A DNA stretch of 64,000 nucleotides from an uncultured Acidobacteriota bacterium (GTDB lineage: Bacteria; Acidobacteriota; Terriglobia; Versatilivoradales; Versatilivoraceae), in assembly GCA_963803155.1 (NCBI GenBank), contig CAWDMN010000059.1, forward strand, positions 300,636-364,635, written 5' to 3'. Within the stretch, counting starts at the first letter, position 1. Every line of letters begins with the position of its first letter. Positions 2,408 to 53,412 of this stretch are shown here, one piece after another. A model generated the notes under the pieces. It was not told the DNA's origin. It saw only the letters and a program-made list of their open reading frames with translations, and made no database searches. The position numbers and the translations under genes are program-made.

Positions 2408-2537
2408 GCTTTTGGCCAAGCAACCAGAGGCTCTACAGAAAGCACGAAGCGACAGCGAGTGATCAGGGCGGCGGCAAAAGAATTCCAGGCCCCAGACAGA
2501 TGAAGCTGAGCTGATCGCTCGTTGGCACTTCGCGCTC
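2408..2537. repeat. repeat family R1, copy A: part1 2408-2466 and part2 2506-2537
   Basis: The sequence gcttttggccaagcaaccag...aagcacgaagcgacagcgagtgatcag and gctgagctgatcgctcgttggcacttcgcgct reappears reverse-complemented at 4463-4559. Confidence 0.7.
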
Positions 2538-2651: not shown

Positions 2652-4316
2652 ATGACGATTAAAAAAAAGAAAACCATATTGTTGATCACTGTGTTTGTCT
2701 GTTTCGCATTAGCCATCATTACCTGGCAATTTACCAAACCCACGGCCGCGGGCCCGCCGAGGCTGGAACGCTTCCTGCCGGCCACTACTCTTGGCTTCAT
2801 CCAGGCCTATGACCTGCGTTCACAGACCCTGCACATAACGGAATCCGAAGCCTGGAGGGCCTTGCTCGATGAAAATCCAACGGCGGGACCCCTCTTGTTG
2901 ATGAGCGCCAATCACGCCGGTCTTTTGGATGCCAGTTATGCGGTGGCACTTTGTGGCTTGGAAATTCAAAATGAAAAACCAGCTCCGGCGGGGGCTCTGC
3001 TGGCACATTTTAATTCTCATTATTCCCTGGGAATGTTTGAGCGGCGGCTCTTGGAAAAAAGAAAGAGCTCCGCAAATGGTGAGAAGCTCTACGAGGGGGT
3101 AAAGATCTCGATTTGGGAGGAAAAAGATCATCCTCCGCTCTATTATGCCAAGAAAGATACGCTGGCGGTGTTGGCGAACTCTTTTGCCACAATCACCGGG
3201 ATCCTCGATGTTGCCTCCGATAAAGCTCCCTCTCTAGCAGGAAACTCGCGGCTGATTGAGGCAAGAGGCAAGGCCACGAATAACGATGAGCTCTTTGGTT
3301 TTTTTGATAGCACGCAACTGCGTCAATCCTTGAAAAGCATTTCGGATGAGCAAAAACAAAAGAGGTTGAAGGAACTCCTACAAGAGACCGGCTTGGACTG
3401 GGTGGAGTATGGGGCCATGAACAGCAGCTTTGTGGAAGGGCGCGTCCTGGAGAGTTTTGAGCTGCACATCCCCCAACAGGGGGCTGGAATCCTGCGCGAA
3501 GTGCTGAACACTCCTCCCACTTCCGGCGCTTTGCTCTCCTTCGTGCCGGAAGGGGCATCGCAAGTCCTGGATGCATCGATTGCCAACGCATCGGATGCCT
3601 TAAACCAATTCCTGGCACTCATCGACCGGCTGCATTCCAGTCAAAATAAGCCGGGAGCAGAGGACTTTTTAAAACATATCACGGAAAAAACCGGACTCGA
3701 CTTTCAGGAAGATTTCCTTAAATCGCTGGGAGCGGAAATCTGTCTGGCCCAATTCTCCGCTGATCCCTCTGAGGGGCTGCTGCTCTTGAATCTTCTGGAT
3801 GAAAATCGTATGGAGCAAACATTGAAAAAAGTGGCGGATAAAATTCGCCAGCCGATTACAACCGCAACCTATCAGGGATTCCCCGTGCGGCAGATTGCGT
3901 TGCCTGGGAAAATGGCATTATCCTACACCTTCATCAACGGCAACCTGATCGTGAGCTCAACCCGAGGGAGCGTGGAAAAATCCATAGCAGCCTACCGCGA
4001 GGGCAAATCACTTTCCGCGAGCCCCTCGTACCTGGAAGCTCGTCAAGAAATGCTGCATCCATCCTCTTTCATCTATTACAGCTCTAATAAGGATTATTTG
4101 AAACAACTGGAGGTTGTGCTAAAGGACTCCGACAAAGATTTCAAACCCGGCGGAAAAGACTCAAACCTGAGGCCCAGTTTCGCTTTTGGTTACACAGAGC
4201 CGAATGGATACTTGATCAAGAGTCTCTCACCGCTTGGGATCTTCCCCCGCACCTTGATGATGGTCACTTCCCGCATTTCCGCGGAAATCGAAAAGGATGG
4301 ATCGCCACACACCTAA
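2652..4316 (+). CDS. hypothetical protein with N-terminal signal-anchor (possibly DUF3352-like)
   Basis: 554-aa ORF. The N-terminus is MTIKKKKTILLITVFVCFALAIITW (one TM helix). The rest is soluble with mixed composition. It lies between inverted copies of repeat R1. Confidence 0.55.
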   Translation: MTIKKKKTILLITVFVCFALAIITWQFTKPTAAGPPRLERFLPATTLGFIQAYDLRSQTLHITESEAWRALLDENPTAGPLLLMSANHAGLLDASYAVALCGLEIQNEKPAPAGALLAHFNSHYSLGMFERRLLEKRKSSANGEKLYEGVKISIWEEKDHPPLYYAKKDTLAVLANSFATITGILDVASDKAPSLAGNSRLIEARGKATNNDELFGFFDSTQLRQSLKSISDEQKQKRLKELLQETGLDWVEYGAMNSSFVEGRVLESFELHIPQQGAGILREVLNTPPTSGALLSFVPEGASQVLDASIANASDALNQFLALIDRLHSSQNKPGAEDFLKHITEKTGLDFQEDFLKSLGAEICLAQFSADPSEGLLLLNLLDENRMEQTLKKVADKIRQPITTATYQGFPVRQIALPGKMALSYTFINGNLIVSSTRGSVEKSIAAYREGKSLSASPSYLEARQEMLHPSSFIYYSSNKDYLKQLEVVLKDSDKDFKPGGKDSNLRPSFAFGYTEPNGYLIKSLSPLGIFPRTLMMVTSRISAEIEKDGSPHT

Positions 4317-4462
4317 AGACTCAGGAGGGAATTTCCGGTTCGCAACTCTCCTCCTTGATCGGGATGCCATTAAGAGCGAAAGAAAAAAGGGAACTACTCA
4401 GTCCCAAGTTCTTTCTCTATGGGTTTGAAGGGAATTCAATGGCAGGGTCTTGTAGGGCCACG

Positions 4463-4559
4463 CTGATCACTCGCTAACGCTTCGTGCTTTTTCGCTTTGC
4501 CTGGTTGCTTGGTTTCGCTAGGCCAAAAGCGCGAAGTGTGAACGGGCGATCAACTCAGC
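4463..4559. repeat. repeat family R1, copy B (inverted relative to copy A; part2 and part1 fused)
   Basis: The reverse complement reads gctgagttgatcgcccgttcacacttcgcgcttttggcctagcgaaaccaagcaaccaggcaaagcgaaaaagcacgaagcgttagcgagtgatcag. It matches both halves of copy A. Confidence 0.7.
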
Positions 4560-4721
4560 ATGACGTGCCTTGGTCTGCAATTCATAAGCTGCCACGCTCA
4601 GTGCTCTCTTTTGGTTTGGATTCAAAGGGAGATTCAAAGGGGGTTTAAAGGGTCAGATCTGGTTATTATGTAATATTAAGTTTCGATTCTTGATTAAAGG
4701 GAGCCAGCATCATGGGAGGCA

Positions 4722-11334: not shown

Positions 11335-11347
11335 ATTACCTCCTAAA

Positions 11348-11425
11348 AAAATCCCCCTTAATAAAGGGGGAATAAATTTTCATCATCTTGTTGTGACAGT
11401 CACGCTGGCATGCGTAGCTCCTCAG
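11348..11425 (-). promoter_or_regulatory. conserved ~78-nt leader element, copy 1 (terminator-like hairpin TCCCCCTT-ATTA-AAGGGGGA plus U-run, immediately 5' of SD AGGAGG and start codon)
   Basis: About 90% identical to 24754-24829, which sits in the same position relative to another minus-strand start codon. It lies between the GH38-like gene stop (11443) and the PHP-like gene start (11334). Confidence 0.5.
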
Positions 11426-11442
11426 AAGCCACGCCGCGAGAT

Positions 11443-13983
11443 CTAATCCAGCTCAAGCGCAAAAGTTCGAAATTGCCAGGGCTTAAAATCGACTGGCGAA
11501 GTGATTTTGCCCTGTGGTTCGCCGGCCAGATTTACTTCCGTAAAAGCTGCTTTGTCTCTATGAACTTGAAACGCCAGCTTCCCTCCCATCCCGTGATGTT
11601 CCCAAAAGCGGACATTAATCTGGCCTTTTTTGACATGGCAAGCCGTCAACAGGATTTGGGACGACTCGCTCGCGAAGATACCCGCCGTGGTTCCCGCCTC
11701 GCCATTACCCGGAGATCCTGCATGCACTGGGCAGGGGAAATTATAATCCAGCGCTAATCGATGAAGACCAGCTTCCCGCCAGGATCCTGAAAAGGGGCAC
11801 AACGCAAACTCATAGCTTAAACTACCATAAAGCATACGGGTCCCCCAGATATAATTCATGGCAAAAGCGAGCGGAAGCGAAAAACCGCCATCCGCCTCCC
11901 GGACCGACCCCATGGCGCCACGATTGAAATACGCCAGACCTGCCGTGCCATCGCCCACGGCTGTCCAATAATTCCCTTCCACATACCGGGCATCCGTTTC
12001 GACAATCGTGAAGGGAAGATCCCTGATCCCAATGGCGGAAGGTGGCAGCAAGGGAAAAGTCTTAAAGCGTAATTTTTCCTCATGAACAAAAGCGGATTTG
12101 TCATCCCGGAGATTCTCGCTTAACTGGCCGATTTTCTCGTTGTTGAACTCAAGGGTGACGCGATAATCCAGACGGGGAGTGTCACCGCACACAGTCAAAT
12201 CCACAACGTAAGGAATCCCCCCGATTTCTCCCTGTTCGCGCGCCACCACCCAGGCGGAGCCCTGAGGAGCAGGCATCAAAGTCCAGTTCCCCGTGGATTC
12301 ACAGACTCTTCCATCTATTCTGCCGGTCAGGATGCCGCTCCGTTTGCCCGATGCAAAGACCTCCTGGCCGGTTTGCCGATTTTTCAGAGAGGCAATCCCC
12401 CCTTGTGGATTCAACCGGAGGAGCCAATGAGGCGATGTAATCTGGAGCTGATGGGGATCGCATTGACAGGATGGAAATCCTGAAGGCTGGCGCTCATCTG
12501 AGGCAAGGACGGAAAAAGTGGCAAAAGAGAAGGGAGGCAGATCCGCCCAGAAGGCCATCCGAGCATCCCCCATCTTTTCCTGGGAAGACCGTTCGGCGGA
12601 AAGAATCAGAGAGGGAATCGTCTCCCCTTCCCTTTGGACCTGCAAGGATTTGGCAGTTCCCCGGGGCAAGGGCAAAGGGGTTTTCAACCATTGCCGACGC
12701 GGCCAGCAGTTCGGGTTCAAGACGGTGATCTGAGCCACTCCATCGGCCTTCAACCGGGAAGCCATGTACTCCATCGACCTTCGTTGAACCTCATGGGACC
12801 GTTCCATCGAGGCCGCCAAAAACTGCCGGGCCTCCCGGAGCAGCCCACAAATCTGGATATCGTGATGTTGAGCCACCAGCAAGTTTTTCCAGGCCTGATC
12901 CAGCGGAGCCTCGCGGCTCTCGCAGCCATGCCAGCACGCTAGCGCATCCATCCGTTCGGCCGTCAAAACAGCTACTTCGGCTTCGCGGCTCCGGTTCCAG
13001 ATTTCGTTCCCACAATACCCCCAGGGCATCCGCACTTTAAAATCGTCGGGAGCCGTCTTCATTTCTTCGGCCGGCTGAGGGAAACGCGATCGCAATTCCT
13101 CCAGCAAAATCCACCGATATCCGGGTTTCCCTTCGATTTCCCGCACCAACTCCTCCCGCCGCAAGCCGGAGTCGTCCGCTCGGCTGGCCAGCAGGGGCTG
13201 GATACGCGCGAATTTCCGCTTGAAATCAGCGGGAGATTCCTGGCACTCCTGGCTGGGATAACGCGTCAAGATCCAATTGTCGATGGGGGTCTTGCCAAAT
13301 TCCGCCCCTTCGCCTTTGTAGGTGGGGACTGTGGCAATTTTCGATCCATCGGCGCCCACCCACCACCCGATGGGCAGATCGAAGGCCGGATTATACCCAT
13401 ACATCATGTAATGGGTCCGCATGATCGCCCCCTGGAATTTGAATCCATTCAGAATCTGGGGGATCTGACTATGCATGGCATGCTCACTCATCAAATAGAT
13501 CGGCGGAGCAGTGGAAAAATAACGGCGGTCTGCCTCCAGGGCATAAGCGATCTGGCGGATATTGGACTCTTCATTGATGAACTGGGCCAACGGCTGTCCA
13601 TAAGTGCAGGTTCCAATCCCGAAACGACCAGGAAATTGTTTAAGATAACCTCGGAGTTGCTCCAATATTTCGGGGGCGACGCGAGCTAACTCATCATAAG
13701 TCCAAGCTTCATTATCCAGTCCGATTTTGAAACTGGGATACCGCTTCAACCATTCGATGGCACTGTTCAGATACTGGAGAAAATGCTCTCTTCCCCAAAG
13801 CACCAGCCCGCCGTGATCATAGGTGAGGAGGTAGAGAGCTCTTTCATTGGAGGAAGGAGAAGGATTTTGCGGAACGTTATCTTCAGCCCGCAGCTTCGAA
13901 TTTAGATGGCTGGAGGGATTTGCCATCCCCTCCCATGAAGTTGCCGTTATCCCCATCCAAGCTAAAAACCTGCGCCGATCCAT
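11443..13983 (-). CDS. TAT-secreted glycoside hydrolase, GH38 (alpha-mannosidase)-like
   Basis: Twin-arginine signal MDRRRFLAWMGITA. The N-terminal 300 aa have the layout and conserved acidic/His positions of the GH38 N-domain. The family assignment is by recollection, not by search. Confidence 0.5.
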   Translation of the reverse strand: MDRRRFLAWMGITATSWEGMANPSSHLNSKLRAEDNVPQNPSPSSNERALYLLTYDHGGLVLWGREHFLQYLNSAIEWLKRYPSFKIGLDNEAWTYDELARVAPEILEQLRGYLKQFPGRFGIGTCTYGQPLAQFINEESNIRQIAYALEADRRYFSTAPPIYLMSEHAMHSQIPQILNGFKFQGAIMRTHYMMYGYNPAFDLPIGWWVGADGSKIATVPTYKGEGAEFGKTPIDNWILTRYPSQECQESPADFKRKFARIQPLLASRADDSGLRREELVREIEGKPGYRWILLEELRSRFPQPAEEMKTAPDDFKVRMPWGYCGNEIWNRSREAEVAVLTAERMDALACWHGCESREAPLDQAWKNLLVAQHHDIQICGLLREARQFLAASMERSHEVQRRSMEYMASRLKADGVAQITVLNPNCWPRRQWLKTPLPLPRGTAKSLQVQREGETIPSLILSAERSSQEKMGDARMAFWADLPPFSFATFSVLASDERQPSGFPSCQCDPHQLQITSPHWLLRLNPQGGIASLKNRQTGQEVFASGKRSGILTGRIDGRVCESTGNWTLMPAPQGSAWVVAREQGEIGGIPYVVDLTVCGDTPRLDYRVTLEFNNEKIGQLSENLRDDKSAFVHEEKLRFKTFPLLPPSAIGIRDLPFTIVETDARYVEGNYWTAVGDGTAGLAYFNRGAMGSVREADGGFSLPLAFAMNYIWGTRMLYGSLSYEFALCPFSGSWREAGLHRLALDYNFPCPVHAGSPGNGEAGTTAGIFASESSQILLTACHVKKGQINVRFWEHHGMGGKLAFQVHRDKAAFTEVNLAGEPQGKITSPVDFKPWQFRTFALELD

Positions 13984-14282
13984 AATTCCTCCTACTAATA
14001 TAGCGTTGATGGAGACGGGGCGCCTCCACCTCGTCTGGGTTTGGCCAAACGTACTTTAACGGCCTGAGGGCAGGTTGTCTCCATCCGCTATTCTCATCCC
14101 CTTGTTGTGCAGCGCCGCCGCGGATGCAGTCCCCCAGAAAATCTCCATCGTCTGGTGATTACTGGCAGGATGCTTTCGGCGAACCCTTCCTACCGCGGGC
14201 ACTTGTGATCGCCGTTGCACTCGCACATTCCCCCTTTGCTCTATTCATCATCTGGATCTGGGCAGCGCGGCACTCCAACCGG

Positions 14283-16010
14283 CTATTGCGTCCGAATTCG
14301 GCGAGTCGCATTATCTCTTTTATACTTCTGCCGATCCGGCGAGACCGGCTCTATAAATCCCGCCAAAGCATAAATCAATGCGGCATTCCAGTTAATGGCA
14401 ATTTCATTGGTTTGATAACTGTCCTGAATGTCAATCCAGCTGACCGCTCCTCGTCCCGCCGTATCTGACCAACCCCCACCCACCAGATATCCGGGCCAGG
14501 GATCGACAACTGAGTCGCCCCCGGAACGCCGGTCATGAGGATGCATGGGAGGATCCAGTCCCAATCCGGTAACAAAAGAGCGATTGTAATAATTTCTTCC
14601 GAACAGGTGCCCCAGCGCATCCAGCGCGGTGTTCGAGTAATCGGGATTCGGCACCAGCCGGTTGGCGAGTTGCAGAACCACGGTTTGGCGAGCTACACCG
14701 CCATTGCATCCCCAATAATAAGAAGTGCCCAAAGGCCGTCCGTAACCGTGGGCATTTCGCTGTGCCACAATGGAATTGGCGGCTGAAAGAAGGGCCTCCT
14801 GCACACTCTGCCGCAGAGCTGGATTTTTGCCGCTCCGGCTGGAAAGCAGATAGGTGAACATCCCCAAGTTCTTGACGTTCCACCAATCCCAATCAATATC
14901 GATTTTGGGAGACTGAACATTAGCACGAGCTTCGAAATCACTCAAAAAAGCAGACTCGCCCGTGGTTTCCCACATTTCCGCAGCCGCCCACAGACGGTCA
15001 TCAGGATCGGTGGTTTCATAACCCCCGGTAGAAAAACCCGTCTGATCGGCATTGTGATTGGACTGGATGGCGGCTAAAAATTCATAGCTTTTCCGAGCCG
15101 CTTCCAGACAACGGTTGGCATAGGCAGAGTCGTAAGGTTGATAAATGCGGGCAGCCATGGCTGCCATGGCCACAAAGTCCGCGGTCGCCGCGCTGCTCCA
15201 GGGAACAAAGAAGCGGTCAGCCGTTTCCTTCTCAGGCAGGACAAAACCGCCAAAATTCAAGGTGCTGACCTTATGATAGACCGAGCCATCAGTAGCCTGC
15301 ATCGTGAGGAGCCAGTCCACCTCCCACTTCATTTCATTCAGGAAATCCGGCAAGCCATTCCCGGATTCCGGCAAATCCAGTGATATCTGCCGAAGCTTCG
15401 CCTGATATTGCTCCCAAGCCATGAACATCACCCCAACGGTCACCCCCGCATTTACTACATATTTGTTGTAATCTCCGGCATCATGCCAACCTTGTGTGCC
15501 GGTCTGTTTAATGTGGCTGTGCTCCACATAATCCAAATAAGCATCATTCATGTGGCAAGCTTCATGGGCATAAGTGTTGCCGTTATGCGTACCGGAGACT
15601 GCCGTCCCGCAACGCCAGAGGTACATTCCGCGCATGACGGTGTAATAAGGAAGATTATAAAGAGTCCGGCTGATTTGAAATGAAGTGGACCGGCCGACTC
15701 CGGGGACTTCCAAAAAAAACTGTCCTGAGTCCCGCGCCTCCGAGAAATCAGCCAGATAAATAGATTCAGCGGTATCGGCGTTTTGTACAGGTCCAGTGAC
15801 TGTCCCGCTGAAGACCGTGGAATTGTCAGAAACTCGAACAAGATTAAATTGTGCGCAGGAAGCTGCAATTGAGGCTCGCTTGACCTGCCAGGGAAGAAAG
15901 CCTAACGAGTTCAAACGGATTTGAGCATCCGAGGCATGCAGGACCGTCACGCCCCAAATTCCTAGCAACATAAAGAAAATCCCATGACGGTTTGTTCCTT
16001 TTGAAATCAT
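14283..16010 (-). CDS. glycoside hydrolase family 9 endoglucanase with N-terminal Ig-like (CelD_N) domain
   Basis: The GH9 signature GWHDAGDYNKYVVNAG is present, together with the catalytic region near the C-terminus. It has a signal peptide. Confidence 0.85.
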   Translation of the reverse strand: MISKGTNRHGIFFMLLGIWGVTVLHASDAQIRLNSLGFLPWQVKRASIAASCAQFNLVRVSDNSTVFSGTVTGPVQNADTAESIYLADFSEARDSGQFFLEVPGVGRSTSFQISRTLYNLPYYTVMRGMYLWRCGTAVSGTHNGNTYAHEACHMNDAYLDYVEHSHIKQTGTQGWHDAGDYNKYVVNAGVTVGVMFMAWEQYQAKLRQISLDLPESGNGLPDFLNEMKWEVDWLLTMQATDGSVYHKVSTLNFGGFVLPEKETADRFFVPWSSAATADFVAMAAMAARIYQPYDSAYANRCLEAARKSYEFLAAIQSNHNADQTGFSTGGYETTDPDDRLWAAAEMWETTGESAFLSDFEARANVQSPKIDIDWDWWNVKNLGMFTYLLSSRSGKNPALRQSVQEALLSAANSIVAQRNAHGYGRPLGTSYYWGCNGGVARQTVVLQLANRLVPNPDYSNTALDALGHLFGRNYYNRSFVTGLGLDPPMHPHDRRSGGDSVVDPWPGYLVGGGWSDTAGRGAVSWIDIQDSYQTNEIAINWNAALIYALAGFIEPVSPDRQKYKRDNATRRIRTQ

Positions 16011-18478: not shown

Positions 18479-18574
18479 GGGAGGGCGAGCCTCCCGCTTA
18501 GGCGGACTCCGCCTGGCGAGCTGCTCCAGGTCCACGGATTAGCTCTGACGGCTCGGTGGGAGCCTCGCCCTCCC
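18479..18574. repeat. REP-like GC-rich palindromic repeat doublet (family R4): gggagggcgagcctccc at 18479-18495 and gggagcctcgccctccc at 18558-18574, in inverted orientation
   Basis: The same 17-mer recurs at 34554-34570 and, slightly degenerate, at 35562-35617. Confidence 0.6.
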
Positions 18575-24741: not shown

Positions 24742-24753
24742 TTTGTCTCCCTA

Positions 24754-24829
24754 GAAAATCCCCCTTCAAAGGGGGAATAAATTTTCATCCTCTTGTTGTG
24801 CCGTCAAACTGGCATGTGCAGCTCCTCAG
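24754..24829 (-). promoter_or_regulatory. conserved ~76-nt leader element, copy 2 (hairpin TCCCCCTT-CA-AAGGGGGA plus UUUUCU, then SD GGGAG and start codon of the kinase gene)
   Basis: Aligns with 11348-11425, with only about 8 mismatches. Confidence 0.5.
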
Positions 24830-24841
24830 AACATAGCTTGA

Positions 24842-24913
24842 ATGGAGGCGGGGTGCCCCGCCTGAGTTTGCCACGCTTTCTCAGACGGCCTGAAGGCAGG
24901 CCGCCTCCATCAT
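24842..24913. repeat. structured ~72-bp repeat (family R3), copy 1; the arms atggaggcgg...ccgcctccat close a long imperfect hairpin
   Basis: Its reverse complement is near-identical to 34352-34422. Confidence 0.65.
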
Positions 24914-24984
24914 CCCATTTTCATCTTCATTGTTGTGCCAGCCGAGATGAATGGGCAATGCCAATCAGGCGGATCGGCGCCCCG

Positions 24985-25890
24985 CTAAAGTTTTTCAGGA
25001 TAAATGCCTGCCTGAATCAGTTTCTGGATTCCGGCAATTGCTATCTCTTTATCTTCGCGATAGGTGACCCCAAACCAGGAATCGGGAGTAGGCAACACTT
25101 TGACGCGGGCCTGCCGATTCGAAAGCAAGGTTCCCACCTCATCGGAAATGAAAAATTCCGCTTTGGGATCCTGCCCTCGCCGACCAAGGAAATCTTTGAA
25201 TTGGCTTTGCAGGCGATCAAAGATTGAGGGGTAGAAACCCCAGAGGTTCATGGAAACAATCTCATCACCCGTAAGGGGAAACGCCTGCCCTTCTTTCTCG
25301 ATGAATCGGGCGCCTTGTCCATTTTTTTCAATTTTAGTGCGCTCGACGATTTTGTTTAAAAACATCTGAGCATCGTGGGAGCAAACCCCCCGCGCCACAT
25401 ACCCATGTTCAGAGAGAGTGTTCCGCAGGGTATAGCCTACCATCGAGTAATCATCGCTATTTCGGAGAGAACCGTTGGAAGAAAAAAAGTCCGCAATGAT
25501 TTGGAATGAGTTTGCGCCATAATAATCGTCCGCGTTGATGACCGTAAAAGGCCCATCCATCGTCTCTCGAGCCACCAGAACGGCATGACCCGTCCCCCAA
25601 GGTTTCTCCCGATTCTCCGGAACTGCAAGATCTTCCATGCAACAATCGAGCTCTTGATTCACATAAGCTACCGGCAACTTCTCTTCGAATTTACTTCCGA
25701 CTTTCTCTCGAAACACTTCTGAAAAATGATCCCGGACGATGAAGACGACTTTCCCAAAACCGGCCCGGACCGCATCATAAATGGAATACTCGAGAATCGT
25801 CTCCCCATGAGGTCCAACCGGATCAATCTGTTTTAGACCACCATAACGACTCCCCATTCCGGCAGCCATAATAAGTAAAGCTGGTTTCAT
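24985..25890 (-). CDS. sugar-1-phosphate nucleotidyltransferase family protein
   Basis: The N-terminal LIMAAGMGSRYG is a variant of the GxGxR nucleotidyltransferase loop. 301 aa. Confidence 0.7.
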   Translation of the reverse strand: MKPALLIMAAGMGSRYGGLKQIDPVGPHGETILEYSIYDAVRAGFGKVVFIVRDHFSEVFREKVGSKFEEKLPVAYVNQELDCCMEDLAVPENREKPWGTGHAVLVARETMDGPFTVINADDYYGANSFQIIADFFSSNGSLRNSDDYSMVGYTLRNTLSEHGYVARGVCSHDAQMFLNKIVERTKIEKNGQGARFIEKEGQAFPLTGDEIVSMNLWGFYPSIFDRLQSQFKDFLGRRGQDPKAEFFISDEVGTLLSNRQARVKVLPTPDSWFGVTYREDKEIAIAGIQKLIQAGIYPEKL

Positions 25891-31410: not shown

Positions 31411-31466
31411 TTAGGTGTCAGGTGTCAGGTGTCGGGTGTTGAGTAGTAGATGCCTGACGCCAAGGG
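31411..31466. repeat. heptamer array (AGGTGTC)x3 plus CCTGACGCC box; left arm of an imperfect inverted repeat
   Basis: It pairs with 31648-31712, whose reverse complement is ccaggcgtcaggtgctaggtgtcaggggctaggtgcccggtgccggaggttgggtgtcgggtg. Confidence 0.55.
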
Positions 31467-31647
31467 ACGGATTTGTTTGGAGGAAAAATATAATTCTAAT
31501 TGGGGAATTGGCAGAGCATTCTTTCGCATTTCGGAGTGACGCGGGAAGATGGCGAGCACTATGGGAGCGATTTTTCTCGCTTTGTTAAATCCCTCCCTCA
31601 GTCTGACAATCCCTCTCACCTTTGGCTGGAGTCCTTTTGTCGCCAAA

Positions 31648-31712
31648 CACCCGACACCCAACCTCCGGCACCGGGCACCTAGCCCCTGACACCTAGCACC
31701 TGACGCCTGGAA
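31648..31712. repeat. right arm of the GGTGTCA-type heptamer inverted repeat, ending 11 nt before the FliK-like start codon
   Basis: Read directly from the sequence. Confidence 0.55.
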
Positions 31713-33942: not shown

Positions 33943-34290
33943 ATGAATATGTCTGAAGAAAAAGAAAAACCGGTCAAAGCAGCCGCTTTAAAATATGAAC
34001 ATGGCAAGGATGCCTCTCCACAACTGGTCGCGAAGGGGCAAGGAATGGTGGCGGAAAAAATCCTGGAGCTGGCGAGGGCCAACAACATTCCCGTGCACGA
34101 GGATCCGGCCCTGGTGGAAATTCTTTCAAAAATGGAGATCCTGGACCAGATTCCTTCGGAATGTTATCGAGTCGTCGCGGAGATTCTCGCATTTATTTAC
34201 AAAACCCATGGCGCGGCTACGCTGAAGTTGCAGAACCGCGTGCCGCCCAAACCTATGCTCCCCGAACATAGCGCAAGTCCGGAACATTAA
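33943..34290 (+). CDS. FlhB C-terminal domain (EscU/YscU-like cytoplasmic domain) stand-alone protein, YlqH-like
   Basis: VKAAALKYEHGKDASPQLVAKGQGMVAEKILELARANNIPVHEDPALVEIL matches the conserved AVALxY...AP.VVAKG.G..A..I...A....IP motif of FlhB_C. Confidence 0.75.
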   Translation: MNMSEEKEKPVKAAALKYEHGKDASPQLVAKGQGMVAEKILELARANNIPVHEDPALVEILSKMEILDQIPSECYRVVAEILAFIYKTHGAATLKLQNRVPPKPMLPEHSASPEH

Positions 34291-34351
34291 AAAGCTCCTC
34301 AGAGGAGCCCCGCATGCCAGCATGGCTGGCAAAGCAAGAGGATGAATAGGG

Positions 34352-34422
34352 GATGATGGAGGCGGCCTGTCCAGGCCGTCTGAGCAGGCTTGGCAAACTC
34401 AGGCGGGGCACCCCGCCTCCAT
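34352..34422. repeat. structured repeat family R3, copy 2
   Basis: gatgatggaggcggcctgtccaggccgtctgagcaggcttggcaaactcaggcggggcaccccgcctccat is about 90% identical to the reverse complement of 24842-24913. Confidence 0.65.
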
Positions 34423-34553
34423 CCACGCCATTTTATAGGGAGTCGACGGAATCGAAAAACACTGGGCAGGAGAGATCCACGCCGAACTCAATCCGGCGAA
34501 CACCATGCAAAAAGAGGATAATTGGCAGGGCATTGCAAAAAAGGGCTCGCTGG

Positions 34554-34570
34554 GAGGCTCGCCCTCCCTT
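34554..34570. repeat. REP-like 17-mer gggaggctcgccctccc (family R4)
   Basis: An exact reverse-complement match to 18479-18495. Confidence 0.55.
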
Positions 34571-34620: not shown

Positions 34621-35337
34621 CTATTTTTTTGCTTTTCCGAAGAAGGCTACCCCTAAGATTCCACCTACAGTGGTGAAGATTGCGCAAATTACCAGCTTTG
34701 AGGCCAAGCCAAAGAAAATGACTAACGGGTGGAGCGGCTGATTAATAAACTGCATTATCCATTCTAAAATTCTCGCCGATTCCGGCGGAAGATTATCGAC
34801 GCTTTTGAAGATATCTTGAAATTGTTCGACCCCCCGCGAGCGGAAAATCAAGGTCAGAGGAATCGACATAACTTCCCATGCCACGGCGCCAATTGCCCCG
34901 GTCAAAAGACCCAATTTGGCTCCAGTTCCCGCTTCAATATTGCTCTTCGTCTCTTGGCGCAGGAAATAAACGGCCAAAATCCCTCCGGCAATGACCCACA
35001 GCCAGCAACAACAACTGACAATGGGCAGAGAGGAAGCCACCCCCATGATGACTCCGGCCAAAAGGGCCGGCCGGCTTAAATTGAGCGCAGGAGGCGGAGA
35101 AGTGGGTGCAGGTGGATAGTAAGAAGCAGCTGGGGGGGGCAATAAAGGTTCCGGCTGAGGCGGAGGCGCCGGCTCTTGCGCCTGATTTTCCGGAATCAAA
35201 GGGGGAGGAAGCTGTTCCTGGGAAATTTCGATGGGGCTGTTGAGCGGTTTTACCTCACTCACTGAACTCCCGCAGATGGGACAAAAGCGGGCACTTTCAT
35301 CTAGCAGTTGCTGACAGTTCGGACATTGTTTATGCAT
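34621..35337 (-). CDS. zinc-ribbon domain membrane protein (proline-rich linker, 3-4 TM helices)
   Basis: N-terminal CPNCQQLLDESARFCPICG (C4 zinc ribbon). A Pro-rich spacer follows, then hydrophobic helices. Confidence 0.6.
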   Translation of the reverse strand: MHKQCPNCQQLLDESARFCPICGSSVSEVKPLNSPIEISQEQLPPPLIPENQAQEPAPPPQPEPLLPPPAASYYPPAPTSPPPALNLSRPALLAGVIMGVASSLPIVSCCCWLWVIAGGILAVYFLRQETKSNIEAGTGAKLGLLTGAIGAVAWEVMSIPLTLIFRSRGVEQFQDIFKSVDNLPPESARILEWIMQFINQPLHPLVIFFGLASKLVICAIFTTVGGILGVAFFGKAKK

Positions 35338-35561: not shown

Positions 35562-35617
35562 CCCGGCGAGCCGTTTCGGGTTCTGGTCTCGGCGGGAGCC
35601 TCGCCCTCACCTGTTCT
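35562..35617. repeat. degenerate R4-type palindromic pair (gccgagcctcccggcgagcc ... cggcgggagcctcgccctc) 70-125 nt upstream of the fumarate hydratase gene
   Basis: Read directly from the sequence. Confidence 0.45.
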
Positions 35618-43631: not shown

Positions 43632-43806
43632 CTCTGGCCCCTCTATTTTAAATTCCACTCTCCATGTCTGGGCTTCCAGCGCTCGCATAAAGATTACGCC
43701 AGAAACCTTGCCGCGGATCTTCGTTTGCTTGGGCAACCTTTGCATCTCCTCTGCCTTTACGGACAGTTGCCTCTCTAAGACAGGAATTGATATTCTTTGC
43801 CACGGC

Positions 43807-43865
43807 GATTATTCCGACTCCGATTATTCCGACTGAGATTATTCCGACTAGGGAATTTTCGACAT
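43807..43865 (+). repeat. three perfect tandem copies of GATTATTCCGACT at 15-bp period plus a degenerate fourth (ATTTTCGACA), about 50 bp upstream of mreB
   Basis: Read directly: 43807-43819, 43822-43834, 43837-43849. Confidence 0.8.
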
Positions 43866-43912: not shown

Positions 43913-44944
43913 ATGAATTTGAGATCTTTATTTCACCTGTTTTCGAGTGATTTAGCCATTGATTTAGGCACTGCCAATTCCCTGGTTTATGCCAAAGGGA
44001 AAGGAATAATAGTAAATGAGCCCTCGATTGTTGCCATTCATAAACAGACGGGCGAAATTGAGGCTGTGGGGAAGGAAGCCAAGGAGATGCTGGGGCGGAC
44101 TCCGGGAAATATCGTGGCCATCCGCCCTCTGAAAGATGGAGTGATTGCCGATTTTAAAGTCACGGAAAAAATGCTCAATCACTTCATCCAAAAAGCTCAT
44201 GGCCGCAAGATGTTGGTGCATCCCCGGATTGTGATTGGAGTGCCTTCGGAGATCACGCAAGTGGAAAAACGGGCCGTGATCGATTCGGCGTTTCGGGCCA
44301 AAGCCAGCGAGGTTTACCTGGTTGAGCAAGCCATGATGGCGGCCATTGGCGCCGGCTTGCCGATCACCGAACCCTCTGGCAATATGGTGGTGGACATTGG
44401 GGGGGGCACTACGGATATTGCGGTCATCTCGCTCTCCGGCATCGTCTATAGCCGCTCCGTCCGATTGGCTGGCAATGAAATGGATGAAGCCATCACCCAA
44501 TATATTAAGCGGAAATACAACCTCTTGATCGGCGAACGAACCGCCGAACATATCAAAATCGATATCGGATCCGCCTATCCTCTTGACGCCCCGATTTCCA
44601 TGGAAATCAAGGGGAGGAACCTCATCGAGGGCATCCCCAAGACTTTGGTGATCACAGACGACGAAATCCGGGAAGCATTGTCGGAATGCGTGAGCACCAT
44701 CGTGAATGCCGTGCGGGTGGCGCTGGAAAGAACTCCTCCGGAACTCTCCGCGGACATCGTGGACAAAGGGATTGTATTGACCGGCGGCGGCGCCATGCTC
44801 CGGAATCTGGATAAACGGATCCGTGAAGAAACCGGCCTGCCCGTCATGTTGGCCGACGATCCGCTCTCTTCCGTGGTGCTGGGCACGGGAAGACTGCTCA
44901 CCGACTTCAACCTCCTGAAACGGATTTCGATTGACTCCTTTTGA
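43913..44944 (+). CDS. mreB: rod shape-determining protein MreB
   Basis: Actin-fold phosphate 1 (DLGTANSLVY), phosphate 2 (VVDIGGGTTDIAV), adenosine motif, and C-terminal LTGGGAMLRNLD. Confidence 0.95.
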   Translation: MNLRSLFHLFSSDLAIDLGTANSLVYAKGKGIIVNEPSIVAIHKQTGEIEAVGKEAKEMLGRTPGNIVAIRPLKDGVIADFKVTEKMLNHFIQKAHGRKMLVHPRIVIGVPSEITQVEKRAVIDSAFRAKASEVYLVEQAMMAAIGAGLPITEPSGNMVVDIGGGTTDIAVISLSGIVYSRSVRLAGNEMDEAITQYIKRKYNLLIGERTAEHIKIDIGSAYPLDAPISMEIKGRNLIEGIPKTLVITDDEIREALSECVSTIVNAVRVALERTPPELSADIVDKGIVLTGGGAMLRNLDKRIREETGLPVMLADDPLSSVVLGTGRLLTDFNLLKRISIDSF

Positions 44945-45052
44945 AACAGTGGTCGATGGCCAGCGGCGGGTGGCCGGCATGCATCTTTGGCGCAAGTTGA
45001 ATCCACCCAACGAGCCCTGTCCGTTGGCCATTCATCGCGGACAACCGTTCCC

Positions 45053-45874
45053 ATGAAGCAAATTTTCCGATCCCGCGGCAATATGATCGTGCTCGGCCTG
45101 GCTTTTTTTCTGCACCTGCTGCTGCTTTCACTGCAGGCCGTCAAAACCACCCAAACGCCCTTGCTGCGCGGCTTGTTGATGGACTTCTCTTCAGTTTTTT
45201 TGCGCGCCTCCGATGGCGCGGTTCAGCGGATGAAAAATATCTGGGACGGCTATATCGATCTGCGCCAAGCGCGCGAGGAGAATCAATCGCTGAAAGCCAG
45301 CATCGCTGCGTTTGAAAAACAGCTAACCTTGAGCCGCGAAAAACTCAAGGAATCCGGCCGCTTCACTCTGCTGGAAGAATTGGACAAAACGCTGAATCTT
45401 CCCAGCGTCAAGGCCAGGATTATCGGAGCAGATACCAGCCAATGGTACGGCTCACGGCTCCTGAACCGGGGGAAGAACGCGGGAGTGTCTTTGGATTGCG
45501 CCGTACTGGCTCCGGAAGGAGTATTGGGCCGAATTGTTCATGTTTCGAGCACCACGAGTATCATGCAATTAGTGACCGACATCGAGAGTGGGGCTGGCGT
45601 GATTTTGGAAGGGAGCCGAGCCCAAGGGGCTTTAAAAGGAGAAGGAGACACTTCAGCCTCCATTGATTATATCCGCAGCAGTGAGACGGTGACGGTGGGC
45701 GAGCGGGTGTTGACTTCCGGATTGGATCAGATTTATCCGAAAGGATTGCTGGTGGGCACGGTGAGTCGGGTTATTCCCACGCGGCAAATCTATCAATCGA
45801 TCCGTGTCAGCATAGCGGCCCGGCCCGAACATACGGAGGAGGTCCTGATTCTTTTGAAAGGCCGCGAGAATTGA
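45053..45874 (+). CDS. mreC: rod shape-determining protein MreC
   Basis: Start moved to ATG 45053 (MKQIFRSRGNMIVLGLAFFL), just before the TM helix. Coiled-coil region, then a beta domain. Conserved position after mreB. Confidence 0.8.
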   Translation: MKQIFRSRGNMIVLGLAFFLHLLLLSLQAVKTTQTPLLRGLLMDFSSVFLRASDGAVQRMKNIWDGYIDLRQAREENQSLKASIAAFEKQLTLSREKLKESGRFTLLEELDKTLNLPSVKARIIGADTSQWYGSRLLNRGKNAGVSLDCAVLAPEGVLGRIVHVSSTTSIMQLVTDIESGAGVILEGSRAQGALKGEGDTSASIDYIRSSETVTVGERVLTSGLDQIYPKGLLVGTVSRVIPTRQIYQSIRVSIAARPEHTEEVLILLKGREN

Positions 45875-45875
45875 A

Positions 45876-46364
45876 ATGATGGAACTGCTCCGCCCAGCTC
45901 TGATCGGGTTTTTGCTCATCCTGACGGTGATCCTGCAATCTTTTATGGCGCACCAACTGCCCTGGCTGGCCGTATTGGATTTTCCGTTGATACTAATTCT
46001 ATATATTGCTCTGACCCGCGACCGTCTCCTGTTGGTAATTTTGCTCGGCATCGCTGTTGGGATTTGGCAGGACAGCTTATCTCTTTGTCCGCTGGGCATG
46101 AATGGTTTGGTCAAACTCTCCATTGGGACCGTGGCATTTTTCGCCAGCGCTTACATTGCCGTCGACCGCATCAACACCCGCTGGGGAGTGCTCTTTTCCT
46201 GCGCTTCCCTCTCTGCCCTTCTATTTTGGAGTCTGCGAATCCTCTTTCTCAATCGGAGCGAGTTCTTCCCGGGGCAAACTATTCTGCTGGGAGGTTTGAT
46301 GAATGCAACGGTGGGGTTGTTGTTTTTTTACCTTTTCGACAAAATATTAAAGAAACCGGAGTAA
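45876..46364 (+). CDS. mreD: rod shape-determining protein MreD
   Basis: 162-aa polytopic membrane protein immediately after mreC. Confidence 0.7.
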   Translation: MMELLRPALIGFLLILTVILQSFMAHQLPWLAVLDFPLILILYIALTRDRLLLVILLGIAVGIWQDSLSLCPLGMNGLVKLSIGTVAFFASAYIAVDRINTRWGVLFSCASLSALLFWSLRILFLNRSEFFPGQTILLGGLMNATVGLLFFYLFDKILKKPE

Positions 46365-46431
46365 TCGGGGTCTGGTCCATTTTTAAAGGATCGCTCCGCC
46401 TGAATCTCGATAGGCTGCTGGTGTTTTTTCG

Positions 46432-48288: not shown

Positions 48289-48422
48289 GGTATATTCACA
48301 AGTTTTTCCAGATTTGATTTTGATGGGCCGAATGGGAAAATTGCCAAAGATGATTTGGGGGGATAAGGAAGCGGACTCCAAAATCACGGAACAATGAGGC
48401 CTGGACCAGCAAGGATTTTTTT

Positions 48423-49520
48423 GTGAATGACCGAATCAAACATTACTTAAAAGATTTTGACTGGCTCACTTTCCTGCTGGTTCTCATGGTAGCCGCGGTA
48501 GGAATCATGGAGATACGCAGTGCCACTCATCGCAGCCACACGGATGTTTTTTTTCTGAAACAATTGTACTGGGTTTTGTTTGGAATCATCTGCATGGTGA
48601 TCGTGGCCAGCGTGGATTATCATTCGATTGCTGAAAATGTTCCCTATATCTACTTGACGACCATTGTCTCTCTGGTCGTGGTGCTGGTATTGGGCCATAC
48701 CGTCTCCGGCACCAAAGGCTGGCTTTCCGTTGGTGGACATAATATTGGCCAGCCATCGGAGTTCGTGAAAATTGCGGTCATTCTGGCCCTTTCCCGCTTT
48801 CTGGCTGAGATTCGCACCGAATTTCTGCCCATCCGGGACATTTTCAAAGCGGGAGCAATTGCCGGCGCCCCCTTCCTTCTGATCCTATTGCAGCCGGATT
48901 TAGGATCTGCTTTGACTATCCTCCCGATCTTGGCGGTAGGTTTATATTTGGGAGGACTAAAGAGGAAATGGATCCTGACCGGTATATTGATCGGGACGAC
49001 GGTCATTGGGATGAGCTGGTTTTTGTTGAAGCCCTATCAGAAAGAACGAATTTATACTTTCATGGATCCTCAGCGGGATCCACTCGGGCGAGGGTATCAT
49101 GCCATCCAGTCGAAAATTGCCGTCGGGTCCGGCGGATTTTGGGGAAAAGGCTTGGGAAAAGGAAGCCAAACAGAATTGGGATTCCTCCCGGAAAGACACA
49201 CGGATTTCATCTTTTCGGTGATTGGCGAAGAAATGGGATTTATCGGAACCACATCCCTGCTCGTCCTCTACTTTTTAATTTTGATCCGGTTTATCCATGT
49301 CGCTCAGACCGCACGGGACAAACTTGGCATGCACATCGCCCTGGGAGCTTGCAGCCTGATACTTTTCCACATCATGATCAATGTCGGCATGGTTGTGGGC
49401 GTTATGCCCATTACGGGAATCCCCCTTCCGTTGCTTAGTTACGGAGGCTCTTCCATCCTGGCTACTTTTATCTTATTGGGATTGGTCATCAATGTCAGGA
49501 TGAGACGGTTTATCTATTGA
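48423..49520 (+). CDS. rodA: SEDS glycosyltransferase RodA
   Basis: FtsW/RodA/SpoVE family: 10 TM helices and the conserved block PDLGSALTI...SGGFWGKGLG. Confidence 0.9.
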   Translation: MNDRIKHYLKDFDWLTFLLVLMVAAVGIMEIRSATHRSHTDVFFLKQLYWVLFGIICMVIVASVDYHSIAENVPYIYLTTIVSLVVVLVLGHTVSGTKGWLSVGGHNIGQPSEFVKIAVILALSRFLAEIRTEFLPIRDIFKAGAIAGAPFLLILLQPDLGSALTILPILAVGLYLGGLKRKWILTGILIGTTVIGMSWFLLKPYQKERIYTFMDPQRDPLGRGYHAIQSKIAVGSGGFWGKGLGKGSQTELGFLPERHTDFIFSVIGEEMGFIGTTSLLVLYFLILIRFIHVAQTARDKLGMHIALGACSLILFHIMINVGMVVGVMPITGIPLPLLSYGGSSILATFILLGLVINVRMRRFIY

Positions 49521-52884: not shown

Positions 52885-52917
52885 AAGCCGCGGAGATTCA
52901 ATCCGCGGCTTTTTTTG
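52885..52917 (+). terminator. intrinsic terminator of rne (aagccgcgga-gattcaa-tccgcggctt followed by TTTTTTT)
   Basis: 10-bp GC-rich stem plus a 7-nt U-run, 30 nt after the stop codon. Confidence 0.8.
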
Positions 52918-53412
52918 TCAGATATTCTGAGGATCTCCTCATGCCAGCGAGGCTGTCACAACAAGAAAATGAAAACAAGGTGGGACCCGCGAGTGGGACG
53001 ACCCGTCGAGCATATGTGAATACACAGGATGGCGCGTGATTTGGGGTCAATGCATGATTTGGAGCCAAACCTGAACGGCGCTGCCTTAAGAGAGGTTTGC
53101 AGTTCCCCTTCTGAGAATCATTGCCGAGAGGAGCAACTTATTCATTTTTCCGTTTCAGGCTCAATTCACGCATCTCCCGGATCGTGTTTTCAAAAAAAAT
53201 ACATTGATATCCACAAGCACAAAGATGCGAGGATGGAAAAATCAATTCCGGCATTTTCTAAAATCCCTTCCCGAACTTGCCCACATACCGCTCACCGGCG
53301 CGCTGTTGGCGCGTCCGGTGAGTAGAATAGAATGGTTATATCATTGCTCCGAACCCCCTACCAAGCATGTCAAAAAGTGTTGGGGTTCATACCTTACCCT
53401 GGCTTACCGCTG

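What the first reader, a model, noticed from the sequence alone, without database searches (positions are those of the whole stretch)
11335..11442. Conserved ~78-nt element with a terminator-like hairpin sitting immediately 5' of the SD/start codon of two unrelated genes: candidate attenuator/riboswitch-type leader, or a small dispersed repeat
In mRNA sense, 11425-11348 reads UUCUGAGGAGCUACGCAUGCCAGCGUGACUGUCACAACAAGAUGAUGAAAAUUUAUUCCCCCUUUAUUAAGGGGGAUUUUUUUAGGAGGUAAU-AUG. The equivalent region at 24829-24754 is about 90% identical and ends ...UUCCCCCUUUGAAGGGGGAUUUUCUAGGGAGACAA-AUG. Both contain an 8-bp G/C-rich stem whose 3' arm AAGGGGGA is SD-like, followed by a U-run, then a genuine SD and the AUG. 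This is the aptamer-plus-terminator-plus-SD layout of transcription-attenuation leaders. The controlled genes are a PHP-like secreted phosphoesterase and an APH-family sugar kinase. Alternatively, the element may simply be the terminator of the upstream gene carried on a small repeat.
Basis: seen in the sequence. Interest (0 to 1): 0.7.

Follow-up and report, generated by a model that had tools for sequence, protein, structure and literature searches.

The report
Dispersed intergenic repeat, not a riboswitch
The two look-alike "leaders" are copies of a small modular repeat that an uncultured bacterium carries behind many unrelated genes; one module is a terminator-like hairpin, and nothing indicates a ligand-sensing switch.

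Summary
Window 11427-11345(-) and 24831-24753(-) share about 80 nt (71 of 83 aligned columns). Each ends in a CCCCC/GGGGG hairpin with a U-run, directly before an SD and ATG.

The conserved 55-nt core (module A) occurs at least six times in the 64 kb. It is joined to interchangeable hairpin modules:
- B: an 80-nt hairpin.
- C: the terminator-like hairpin.
- D: a further, less defined module.

Every copy lies downstream of a co-oriented gene. Four lie between convergent genes, with no gene to control, and none lies between divergent genes. Flanking genes are functionally unrelated.

A syntenic relative (about 90% protein identity) lacks the A/B/C copies found in the window at all four orthologous spacers checked; one spacer keeps only an older A-remnant shared by both genomes. 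In metagenome contigs the modules are reshuffled, with C upstream of A and direct A-X-A-X arrays. Rfam finds nothing. The only conserved structure in A is one 7-bp hairpin.

Best reading: a new family of sense-oriented, modular intergenic repeats, comparable to SPRITE, BOX, BIME and MIRU. Module C most likely acts as a constitutive, probably leaky, terminator or 3'-end stabiliser for the upstream gene.

The parts
11372..11427 (-). Module A, copy 1. It reads TTCTGAGGAGCTACGCATGCCAG..CACAACAAGATGATGAAAAT: an SD-like GAGGAG, an ATG, a degenerate internal hairpin and an A-rich tail. It starts 15 nt after the stop codon of the GH38-like gene 11443-13983(-).
11345..11371 (-). Module C, copy 1. Terminator-like hairpin UCCCCCUU-UAUU-AAGGGGGA (stem 11371-11352, -14.2 kcal/mol) plus U7 (11351-11345). 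It is followed by SD AGGAGG at 11344-11339 and the ATG at 11334 of the 286-aa gene.
24777..24831 (-). Module A, copy 2.
24753..24776 (-). Module C, copy 2. 7-bp hairpin (24776-24759, -12.6 kcal/mol) plus UUUUCU. It is followed by SD AGGGAG and the ATG at 24741 of the APH-family (AmgK-like) gene.
24914..24956 (-). Partial module A (3' half, GGCTGGCACAACAATGAAGATGAAAAT). It lies in the same spacer, about 30 nt after the stop of the NTP-transferase gene 24985-25890(-).
24842..24911 (-). Module B, copy 1. Long branched hairpin closed by GATGGAGGC/GCCTCCATC, lying between the partial A and A copy 2.
34296..34349 (+). Module A, copy 3. It starts directly after the stop of the FlhB-C-like gene 33943-34290(+). 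The next real gene is convergent (Zn-ribbon gene 34621-35337(-)), so there is no gene to lead.
34355..34422 (+). Module B, copy 2. It is followed by an orphan SD-like TTTTATAGGGAG with no start codon.
52925..52979 (+). Module A, copy 4. It lies 8 nt after the RNase E/G gene's own intrinsic terminator (52887-52916, -18.4 kcal/mol). It is followed by module D and about 430 nt without a convincing + strand gene; the next ORF is convergent (53413-53913(-)).
14089..14143 (-). Degenerate module A (no ATG). It lies in the spacer between the GH9 gene 14283-16010(-) and the GH38-like gene.
14009..14085 (-). Module B, copy 3 (diverged; the closing stem is kept by a G-C to A-U change). It is followed by SD AGGAGG and the ATG at 13983 of the GH38-like gene.
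14200..14259 (-). Older A remnant (CCAGATGATGAATAG) plus a D-like module. It is orthologous to L027 7156-7230 in the relative.

Best explanation
The two sites are copies of a lineage-specific, modular, dispersed intergenic repeat.

Anatomy:
- The constant part is module A, about 55 nt. It contains a U-rich stretch, GAGGAG, a 6-nt spacer, ATG, a 7-bp hairpin that includes the TG of the ATG, and then CACAACAAGAnGATGAAAAT.
- A is followed by one of several interchangeable hairpin modules. At the two reported sites this is module C, a G/C-stem hairpin with a U-run.

Shown:
- The family spreads and turns over between close relatives.
- It always sits in the sense orientation downstream of a gene.
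- The modules recombine.

Inferred:
- The element is co-transcribed with the upstream gene.
- Module C acts as a constitutive intrinsic terminator or 3'-end-protecting stem-loop for that gene. It must be leaky at the two reported sites, because the next gene's SD begins 0-1 nt after the U-tract and there is no room for a promoter.
- The net effect is to lower or insulate expression of the downstream cistron, not to sense a signal.
- How the element moves is not established. Homologous exchange between A copies, or a single-strand hairpin-recognising transposase, are the candidates.
For: Copy number and modularity:
- A recurs six times in 64 kb, joined to C, B or D.
- True homologues occur in metagenome contigs L002-L005, L028, L032 and L033.
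- In L004, module C lies upstream of A instead of downstream.
- L003, L005 and L033 carry direct A-X-A-X arrays.

Position:
- Every copy whose context can be read follows a co-oriented gene (10 of 10).
- Six lie between tandem genes, four between convergent genes and none between divergent genes. At least six divergent spacers are available in the window.
- Downstream genes are unrelated: GH38-like, PHP-like, APH kinase, GFO/IDH/MocA, CN-hydrolase and a lipoprotein.

Turnover:
- The syntenic relative GCA_936419285.1 (APH 91% identical) and L026 (90%) have unrelated, non-repeated sequence at the murU-amgK spacer. The relative also has unrelated sequence at the flhB/Zn-ribbon and GH38/286-aa spacers, and lacks the A'-B block at the GH9/GH38 spacer. 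Only the gene-proximal 10-25 nt are orthologous.
- In a more distant genome the two genes of site 2 overlap.

Structure:
- Only a simple hairpin is conserved in A: 91% of cells paired, and 3 of 7 pairs with compensatory changes in 10 copies. L003 copy 2 and L028 keep the stem with a different sequence.

Module C:
- C fits intrinsic-terminator criteria, and the genome uses canonical terminators elsewhere (RNase E/G gene).
Against: - No transcript data exist, so co-transcription, termination and leakiness are inferred.
- Only about 15 independent copies were available, so orientation statistics are modest (about 0.5^10).
- The 55-nt core is about 85-90% identical between genomes that differ in G+C (0.51 against 0.53-0.59). 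That is more conservation than a junk repeat needs and hints at a sequence-specific function, or at recent transfer.
- The variable positions of A fall in the SD-ATG spacer and at third positions of codons 3 and 9 of the ATG-initiated frame. This pattern would also fit a once-coding or still-translated start.
- No terminal inverted repeats, target duplications or cognate transposase were identified, so mobility is inferred only from presence/absence differences.
Confidence: 0.7

Rival explanations
1. Riboswitch or transcription-attenuation leader. A is an aptamer or sensor, C is the expression-platform terminator, and together they control the downstream gene.
For: At two sites the layout is a conserved segment, then a terminator-like hairpin with a U-run, then SD and ATG. 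The hairpin must be read through for the downstream genes to be expressed.
Against: - Four copies have no downstream co-oriented gene.
- A is joined to hairpins that are not terminators (B, D, X).
- C also occurs upstream of A.
- The genes served are unrelated.
- The element is absent at orthologous sites of a relative with about 90% identity.
- Predicted folds keep the terminator, with no competing conserved helix.
- No Rfam family matches, even at E up to 10.
Confidence: 0.04
2. Portable expression cassette. The unit carries a promoter and/or a ready-made 5' UTR (U-rich stretch plus SD) and drives or boosts the gene it lands in front of.
For: - Each unit ends in (G)ATTTTCTnAGGAG.
- In L002, L003 and L004 real genes start from exactly this motif.
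- Six copies sit directly in front of genes.
Against: - No sigma-70-like hexamer pair lies in A or C on the sense strand.
- The TGGCAC in A lacks a -12 GC, and its GG is lost in two window copies, so it is not sigma-54 (read from the sequence).
- At sites 1 and 2 the SD and spacer are orthologous to the relative's own SD, so they were not brought in by the element.
- Within the window the motif occurs only at these two genes.
Confidence: 0.1
3. Translated mini-ORF or translational-coupling element (MIRU-like). Ribosomes initiate at the ATG of A and, by translating through the spacer, couple or modulate expression of the flanking cistrons.
For: - A has a strong SD (GAGGAG), 6-nt spacing and an ATG.
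- Variable positions coincide with the spacer and with codon third positions.
- In L002 the ORF from A runs 71 codons and overlaps the next gene's start.
- Gene callers predict such ORFs in metagenomes (P0132-P0136).
Against: - In the window the frame stops at codon 4 at both reported sites. It stops at codon 12 at 34296, and the ATG is lost at 14143.
- ORF lengths range from 3 to more than 100 codons with no conserved end.
- The TG of the ATG is sequestered in the 7-bp hairpin.
- Four copies have no downstream cistron to couple to.
Confidence: 0.08
4. Purely DNA-level element mobilised by a Y1/HUH single-strand transposase (REP/RAYT or IS200/IS605-PATE type), with the hairpins as recognition structures and no RNA role.
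For: - The hairpins are conserved by compensatory change.
- A RAYT-like Y1 transposase gene is present in the window at 54336-55352 (NF047646, 72 bits; Pfam Y1_Tnp E=8e-14). It is flanked by inverted repeats and lies 1.4 kb from A copy 4.
- Strand-specific insertion would give an orientation bias.
Against: - The repeats flanking that gene (GGGTCAGACCTTAAT...) are unrelated to A, B or C and occur only twice.
- A has no GTAG or CGTC head.
- Clustered copies are direct, not alternating.
- Orientation follows the local gene direction on both strands of the window.
- The NCBIfam score is below that model's cut-off (72 against 80).
Confidence: 0.08

Closest known systems
[quoted passage not shown]
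   Same: A small dispersed repeat whose predicted RNA structure mimics an intrinsic terminator, with a positional bias toward 3' ends of genes (as summarised in PMC3184786). The A-C copies here have exactly that character.
   Different: No sequence relationship was tested or is expected, because the organisms are unrelated. Here the terminator-like hairpin is only one exchangeable module, and the constant part (A) is not a terminator.
BOX elements (S. pneumoniae), modular boxA-boxB-boxC repeats
   Same: Modular composition with a variable number and order of modules. They are intergenic and transcribed, have stable predicted RNA structure, can alter expression of neighbours, and some carry small ORFs (PMC3184786).
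   Different: The modules are different, and no IS partner was identified here. All 10 copies with readable context are in the sense orientation behind a gene.
REP/BIME of Proteobacteria (RAYT-associated)
   Same: - Short palindromes kept by compensatory mutation.
- Mosaic clusters with linker motifs.
- Found in transcribed spacers and 3' ends, not in promoter regions (that placement is from my own knowledge).
- Reported or suggested roles in termination (PMC2817692, PMC3733652) and mRNA stabilisation (PMC3733652).
- A RAYT-like gene exists in the window.
   Different: - No GTAG or CGTC head.
- Clustered copies are direct, not alternating.
- The RAYT-like gene is flanked by a different repeat.
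- The unit contains 40 nt of conserved non-palindromic sequence, including an SD and ATG mimic.
MIRU (mycobacterial interspersed repetitive units)
   Same: 40-100-bp units lying between genes of operons and co-transcribed. They are absent from homologous regions of a related species and contain small ORFs that touch the flanking genes (PMC3184786).
   Different: The ORF is not maintained here (stop at codon 4 at both reported sites). Copies also occur in convergent spacers, and hairpin modules dominate.

Membership tests
Riboswitch / attenuation leader | Conserved multi-helix sensor fold supported by covariation | tested here: not met
   Only one 7-bp hairpin is conserved in A. The folds of both spacers show no shared higher-order structure. 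Rfam gave 0 hits at gathering thresholds and nothing credible at E up to 10.
Riboswitch / attenuation leader | Always 5' of a gene, and of a functionally coherent gene set | tested here: not met
   Four of ten readable contexts are convergent spacers. The downstream genes are unrelated.
Riboswitch / attenuation leader | Conserved upstream of orthologous genes in relatives | tested here: not met
   A, B and C are absent at the orthologous spacers of GCA_936419285.1 and L026, which are about 90-91% identical at the protein level.
Riboswitch / attenuation leader | Mutually exclusive terminator and antiterminator helices | tested here: inconclusive
   The MFE and centroid structures keep hairpin C. 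No conserved competitor for its 5' arm was seen. With only two A-C copies, covariation cannot be judged.
Intrinsic (Rho-independent) terminator (module C only) | G/C-rich stem, short loop and a 3' U-tract, located after a gene | tested here: met
   Stems of 8 and 7 bp, 5 G-C pairs each, 4-nt loops, tails U7 and U4CU, -14.2 and -12.6 kcal/mol, downstream of co-oriented genes.
Intrinsic (Rho-independent) terminator (module C only) | Actually terminates transcription | not testable with these tools
   Needs Term-seq or in vitro transcription.
REP/BIME | Short extragenic imperfect palindrome preserved by compensatory change | tested here: met
   TGCCAGC-NNN-GCTGGCA in A is 91% paired, with 3 of 7 pairs showing double changes. 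All copies are extragenic.
REP/BIME | GTAG or CGTC head next to the palindrome | tested here: not met
   The palindrome is preceded by C(N)CA and followed by CAACAAG in all copies. The definition is taken from PMC2817692 and PMC3733652.
REP/BIME | Alternating orientation of units within clusters | tested here: not met
   Clusters in window site 2, L003, L005 and L033 are all direct.
REP/BIME | Cognate RAYT gene flanked by the same repeat in inverted orientation | tested here: not met
   The RAYT-like gene 54336-55352 is flanked by a different 23-nt inverted repeat present only twice.
MITE | Terminal inverted repeats and target-site duplication | tested here: not met
   No inverted termini were found for A-C or A-B units (alignment of copies). 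Comparison with the relative's spacers shows replacement and not clean insertion, so no duplication could be defined.
MIRU-like intercistronic unit | Small ORF in the unit whose start and stop mesh with the flanking genes | tested here: not met
   The frame from the ATG of A stops at codon 4 at both reported sites. Only L002 shows an ORF overlapping the next start.
SPRITE / BOX-type dispersed RNA-structured repeats | Multi-copy, intergenic, modular, with stable predicted RNA hairpins and variable presence between close relatives | tested here: met
   Sequence homology to SPRITE or BOX themselves was not tested.

The most novel reading that the evidence does not exclude
Module A is not junk. 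It would be a selected, orientation-locked RNA module: a sequestered SD-AUG start decoy followed by an unstructured CAA/GA-rich tail. It would be placed right after stop codons to capture 30S subunits or an RNA-binding protein, and so set the stability, processing and polarity of the transcript. With its exchangeable hairpins it would form a natural mobile terminator-plus-RBS insulator cassette that rewires operons in an uncultured lineage.
Probability: 0.15. Interest if true: 0.6.

Novelty: new member of a known kind. Interest (0 to 1): 0.3.

Why it matters
Annotation:
- The element mimics an attenuator, with a conserved leader, a terminator and an SD. It also mimics a gene start, with a strong SD and an ATG.
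- It can therefore be mis-called as a riboswitch or as small ORFs. ORFs P0132-P0136 in public metagenomes are such calls.

Biology:
- It marks rapid remodelling of spacers in an uncultured bacterium. Four spacers differ between genomes that are about 90% identical at the protein level.
- It places a terminator-like hairpin inside what are operons in relatives. The murU-like and amgK-like genes overlap in L020 but are 243 nt apart here. This should change the polarity of those gene pairs.

If the conserved A core proves functional, it would be a compact natural part for insulating cistrons.

Tried and rejected
- **Collection scans.** The genome-contig scan with a 19-base core pattern gave one chance hit inside a coding region (L001), so the species is not in that collection. 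Two viral-contig scans gave only partial chance matches. The metagenome scan gave four true loci and one chance hit (L006).
- **Rfam.** Nothing usable was found at either the gathering or the E-value thresholds.
- **Promoter readings.** No sigma-70 pair was found. A sigma-54 reading of CTGGCAC was rejected because there is no -12 GC and the GG is lost in copies 1 and 4. A PyrR-loop-like resemblance of UUCAGAGGAGCU (9 of 12, from memory) was rejected because there is no conserved loop context and there are no pyr genes.
- **General TIR idea.** In the window, TTTTCTnAGGAG precedes only the two reported genes, so it is not a general feature of this genome's gene starts.
- **Coding origin of A.** The probe alignment A7 contained two invented C-terminal residues in one row and was never used. 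The 71-aa A-X ORF found only five look-alike ORFs.
- **Link to the neighbouring RAYT-like gene.** Its flanking repeats are unrelated to A, B or C.
- **Source contig.** The 459-kb source contig could not be fetched; only short Logan contigs were returned.
- **Taxonomy.** It remains unresolved. The best named hits are MAGs labelled Sumerlaeota or Planctomycetota (AmgK-like, 63-67%) and Acidobacteriota or Terriglobia (PBP2, 62-64%).

Full report
**1.

On the minus strand, 11427-11345 and 24831-24753 align with 71 identities in 83 columns, while the 60 nt upstream are unrelated. Sub-patterns of 22-23 nt have no chance expectation in shuffles.

Both copies end in a CCCCC/GGGGG hairpin:
- Site 1: 8 bp, -14.2 kcal/mol, followed by U7.
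- Site 2: 7 bp, -12.6 kcal/mol, followed by UUUUCU.

Both hairpins pass a terminator-pattern scan. Each is followed at once by an SD and the ATG of a 286-aa protein (weak PHP-like matches only) or of an APH-family kinase. Each element also begins shortly after the stop codon of a co-oriented upstream gene: a GH38-like gene at site 1 and an NTP-transferase gene at site 2.

**2. The element is not limited to two sites and is modular**

A profile of the 5' 55 nt (module A) finds further copies in the window:
- 52925-52979(+)
- 34296-34349(+)
- a partial copy at 24956-24914(-)
- a degenerate copy at 14143-14089(-)

What follows A differs from copy to copy:
- Module C, the terminator-like hairpin, follows A at the two reported sites.
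- Module B, an 80-nt branched hairpin closed by GATGGAGGC/GCCTCCATC, follows A at 24911-24842, 34355-34422 and 14085-14009. One compensatory G-C to A-U change is seen in the closing stem.
- Module D follows A at 52976 onward.

The spacer at site 2 is therefore partial-A, B, A, C, all on one strand.

**3. Related sequences elsewhere**

A pattern scan of metagenome contigs returned four true homologues, L002-L005. ORFs mistakenly called over the repeat led to three more loci, L028, L032 and L033. These show the following:
- The same A core is joined to yet other hairpins (X, B').
- L003, L005 and L033 carry direct arrays A-X-A-X.
- In L004, hairpin C lies upstream of A, acting as the last hairpin behind a GFO/IDH/MocA gene.
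- Units end in (G)ATTTTCTnAGGAG whether or not a start codon follows. L028 and window 34430 carry such orphan SD-like ends.

Scans of one-genome-per-species and of viral contigs gave only chance hits.

**4. Position relative to genes**

In all ten contexts that can be read, A lies downstream of a co-oriented gene.
- Six lie between tandem genes: window 14143, 11427 and 24831, plus L002, L003 and L032.
- Four lie between convergent genes:
  - Window 34296, between the FlhB-C-like and Zn-ribbon genes, both supported by Pfam and synteny.
  - Window 52925, after the RNase E/G gene and its own terminator.
  - L005, facing a PAPS-reductase gene.
  - L028, facing a VWA gene.
- None lies between divergent genes, although the window offers at least six such spacers.

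This is the distribution of a 3'/intercistronic element, not of a 5' leader. The genes that do follow it share no function.

**5. Comparison with close relatives**

The MAG GCA_936419285.1 (loci L017 and L027) is syntenic with window 10.4-35.3 kb, and its APH protein is 91% identical. I compared four orthologous spacers.
- At three of them (GH38/286-aa, murU/amgK and flhB/Zn-ribbon), the relative has unrelated, non-repeated sequence in place of A-C, A-B-A-C and A-B. Only the 10-25 nt next to the genes are alignable, and these include the SD of both reported genes.
- A second relative, L026 (90% identical), agrees at the murU/amgK spacer.
- At the fourth spacer (GH9/GH38), both genomes share an old A-remnant plus a D-like module. 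Only the window has the extra A'-B block.
- In a more distant genome the murU-like and amgK-like genes overlap.

The family therefore predates the split of the two genomes, but it has expanded or turned over recently in the window's lineage. The SDs of the two reported genes are ancestral and were not supplied by the element.

**6. Structure**

The only conserved structure in A is a 7-bp hairpin with a 3-nt loop that includes the TG of the ATG.
- 91% of cells are paired, and sliding the register drops this to 13-55%.
- Three of seven pairs show double changes among ten copies.
- L003 copy 2 replaces the hairpin with a longer one that keeps the foot, and L028 keeps it with a different sequence (-8.9 kcal/mol, z = -3.4).
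- In the window's own copies the hairpin is partly degraded.

Folding of the full spacers keeps hairpin C and shows no conserved competing helix. Rfam has no match.

**7. The ATG in A**

A looks like a translation start: a U-rich stretch, GAGGAG, 6 nt, ATG. Its variable positions fall in the spacer and at third positions of codons 3 and 9, so it may derive from a gene start.

The frame is not maintained, however:
- It stops at codon 4 at both reported sites.
- It stops at codon 12 at 34296.
- The ATG is lost at 14143.
- Elsewhere the ORF ends at anywhere from 8 to more than 100 codons.

I treat translation as a minor rival.

**8. Mechanism**

Shown:
- This is a dispersed, modular, sense-oriented repeat with presence/absence differences between close relatives.
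- Module C has the anatomy of an intrinsic terminator.

Inferred:
- The unit is transcribed as the tail of the upstream gene.
- C terminates or protects that transcript.
- Termination at C must be incomplete at the two reported sites. The downstream SD starts 0-1 nt after the U-tract, leaving no room for a promoter, and no sigma-70-type site lies in A.
- The downstream gene therefore depends on read-through, so the insertion should lower its expression relative to the upstream gene. REP and BIME units, and SPRITE-like repeats, are reported or suggested to have comparable effects (PMC3184786, PMC2817692; REP operon effects are from my own knowledge).

How the units spread is unknown. I found no terminal inverted repeats or target duplications. 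A RAYT-like Y1 transposase gene lies at 54336-55352, but it is flanked by a different repeat.

**9. Comparison with known kinds, and verdict**

- The element works most like SPRITE (a terminator-like dispersed repeat) and BOX (modular, transcribed).
- It shares palindrome maintenance and mosaic clusters with BIMEs. It fails three REP/BIME defining features: the GTAG head, alternating orientation and flanking of the cognate RAYT gene.
- It resembles MIRUs in its intercistronic sense placement but does not keep the ORF.
- It fails three of the four tested criteria for a riboswitch or attenuator; the fourth, mutually exclusive terminator and antiterminator helices, was inconclusive.

I file it as a new family of a known kind of element. 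Interest is modest. It would rise if the strongly conserved A core, about 85-90% identical across genomes of different G+C, proves to have a sequence-specific RNA function.

Noticed in passing
window 54336-55352(-), with inverted repeats 54305-54327 / 55394-55416: A 338-aa protein with an N-terminal IS200-like Y1 transposase domain. Its best NCBIfam model is 'REP-associated tyrosine transposase' at 72 bits, against a cut-off of 80. It also has a C-terminal HTH. The gene is bracketed by 23-nt inverted repeats (91% complementary) that occur nowhere else in the window. A protein at least 90% identical exists on a JGI contig (P0131).
   Followed up: partly
window 56546-60339: An IS66-family element sits inside an IS256/Mutator-family transposase gene. 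The IS66 element comprises the transposase 57346-58965(-), small ORFs at 59059-59735(-), and 30-nt inverted repeats 57295-57324 / 59798-59827 (93%). The host gene is split into 56546-57328(+) and 59713-60339(+).
   Followed up: partly
window 2439-2536 and 4448-4573: Two adjoining inverted-repeat pairs (43 and 46 nt, 78-81% complementary) bracket the DUF3352 gene 2652-4316(+). This could be the ends of a mobile unit or a large hairpin.
   Followed up: no
window 18479-18504, 18550-18574, 34544-34568, 35586-35610; also L017 about 380-400 and L015 15-30: A second, unrelated GC-rich palindromic repeat (GGCTCGnTGGGAGnCTCGCCCTCCC). Unlike modules A, B and C, it is conserved at the orthologous site of the relative.
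   Followed up: partly
L002 1286-1445, L003 1395-1554, L033 1380-1520, L028 3850-3990: Module X of the metagenome relatives is a 130-160-nt nested hairpin (...CTGTAGGCCGTTTCGGTGAAACGGC...GGCGGTTCACCGAACCGCCCTACAG...). One sub-hairpin can be tandemly multiplied: P0133 reads GGSPNRPTAEV three times.
   Followed up: partly
L017 10001-11233 (P0002): The relative's APH gene is called with a 42-codon N-terminal extension running through its 162-nt spacer. The conserved start (AAGGAGACAAGATG at about 10128) matches the window's start, so the extension is probably an annotation artefact.
   Followed up: partly
window 43797-43849 and 31412-31440 / 31646-31695: A 15-nt tandem repeat in three copies (TTCCGACTnnGATTA...) lies upstream of mreB. 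GGTGTCA-type short repeats with inverted partners lie between the amidohydrolase and fliK-like genes.
   Followed up: no
window 43913-52855: A conserved cell-shape cluster, mreB-mreC-(mreD)-PBP2-rodA, is followed by an 880-aa RNase E/G gene with a canonical intrinsic terminator (52887-52916, -18.4 kcal/mol). This shows that the organism uses ordinary terminators.
   Followed up: partly
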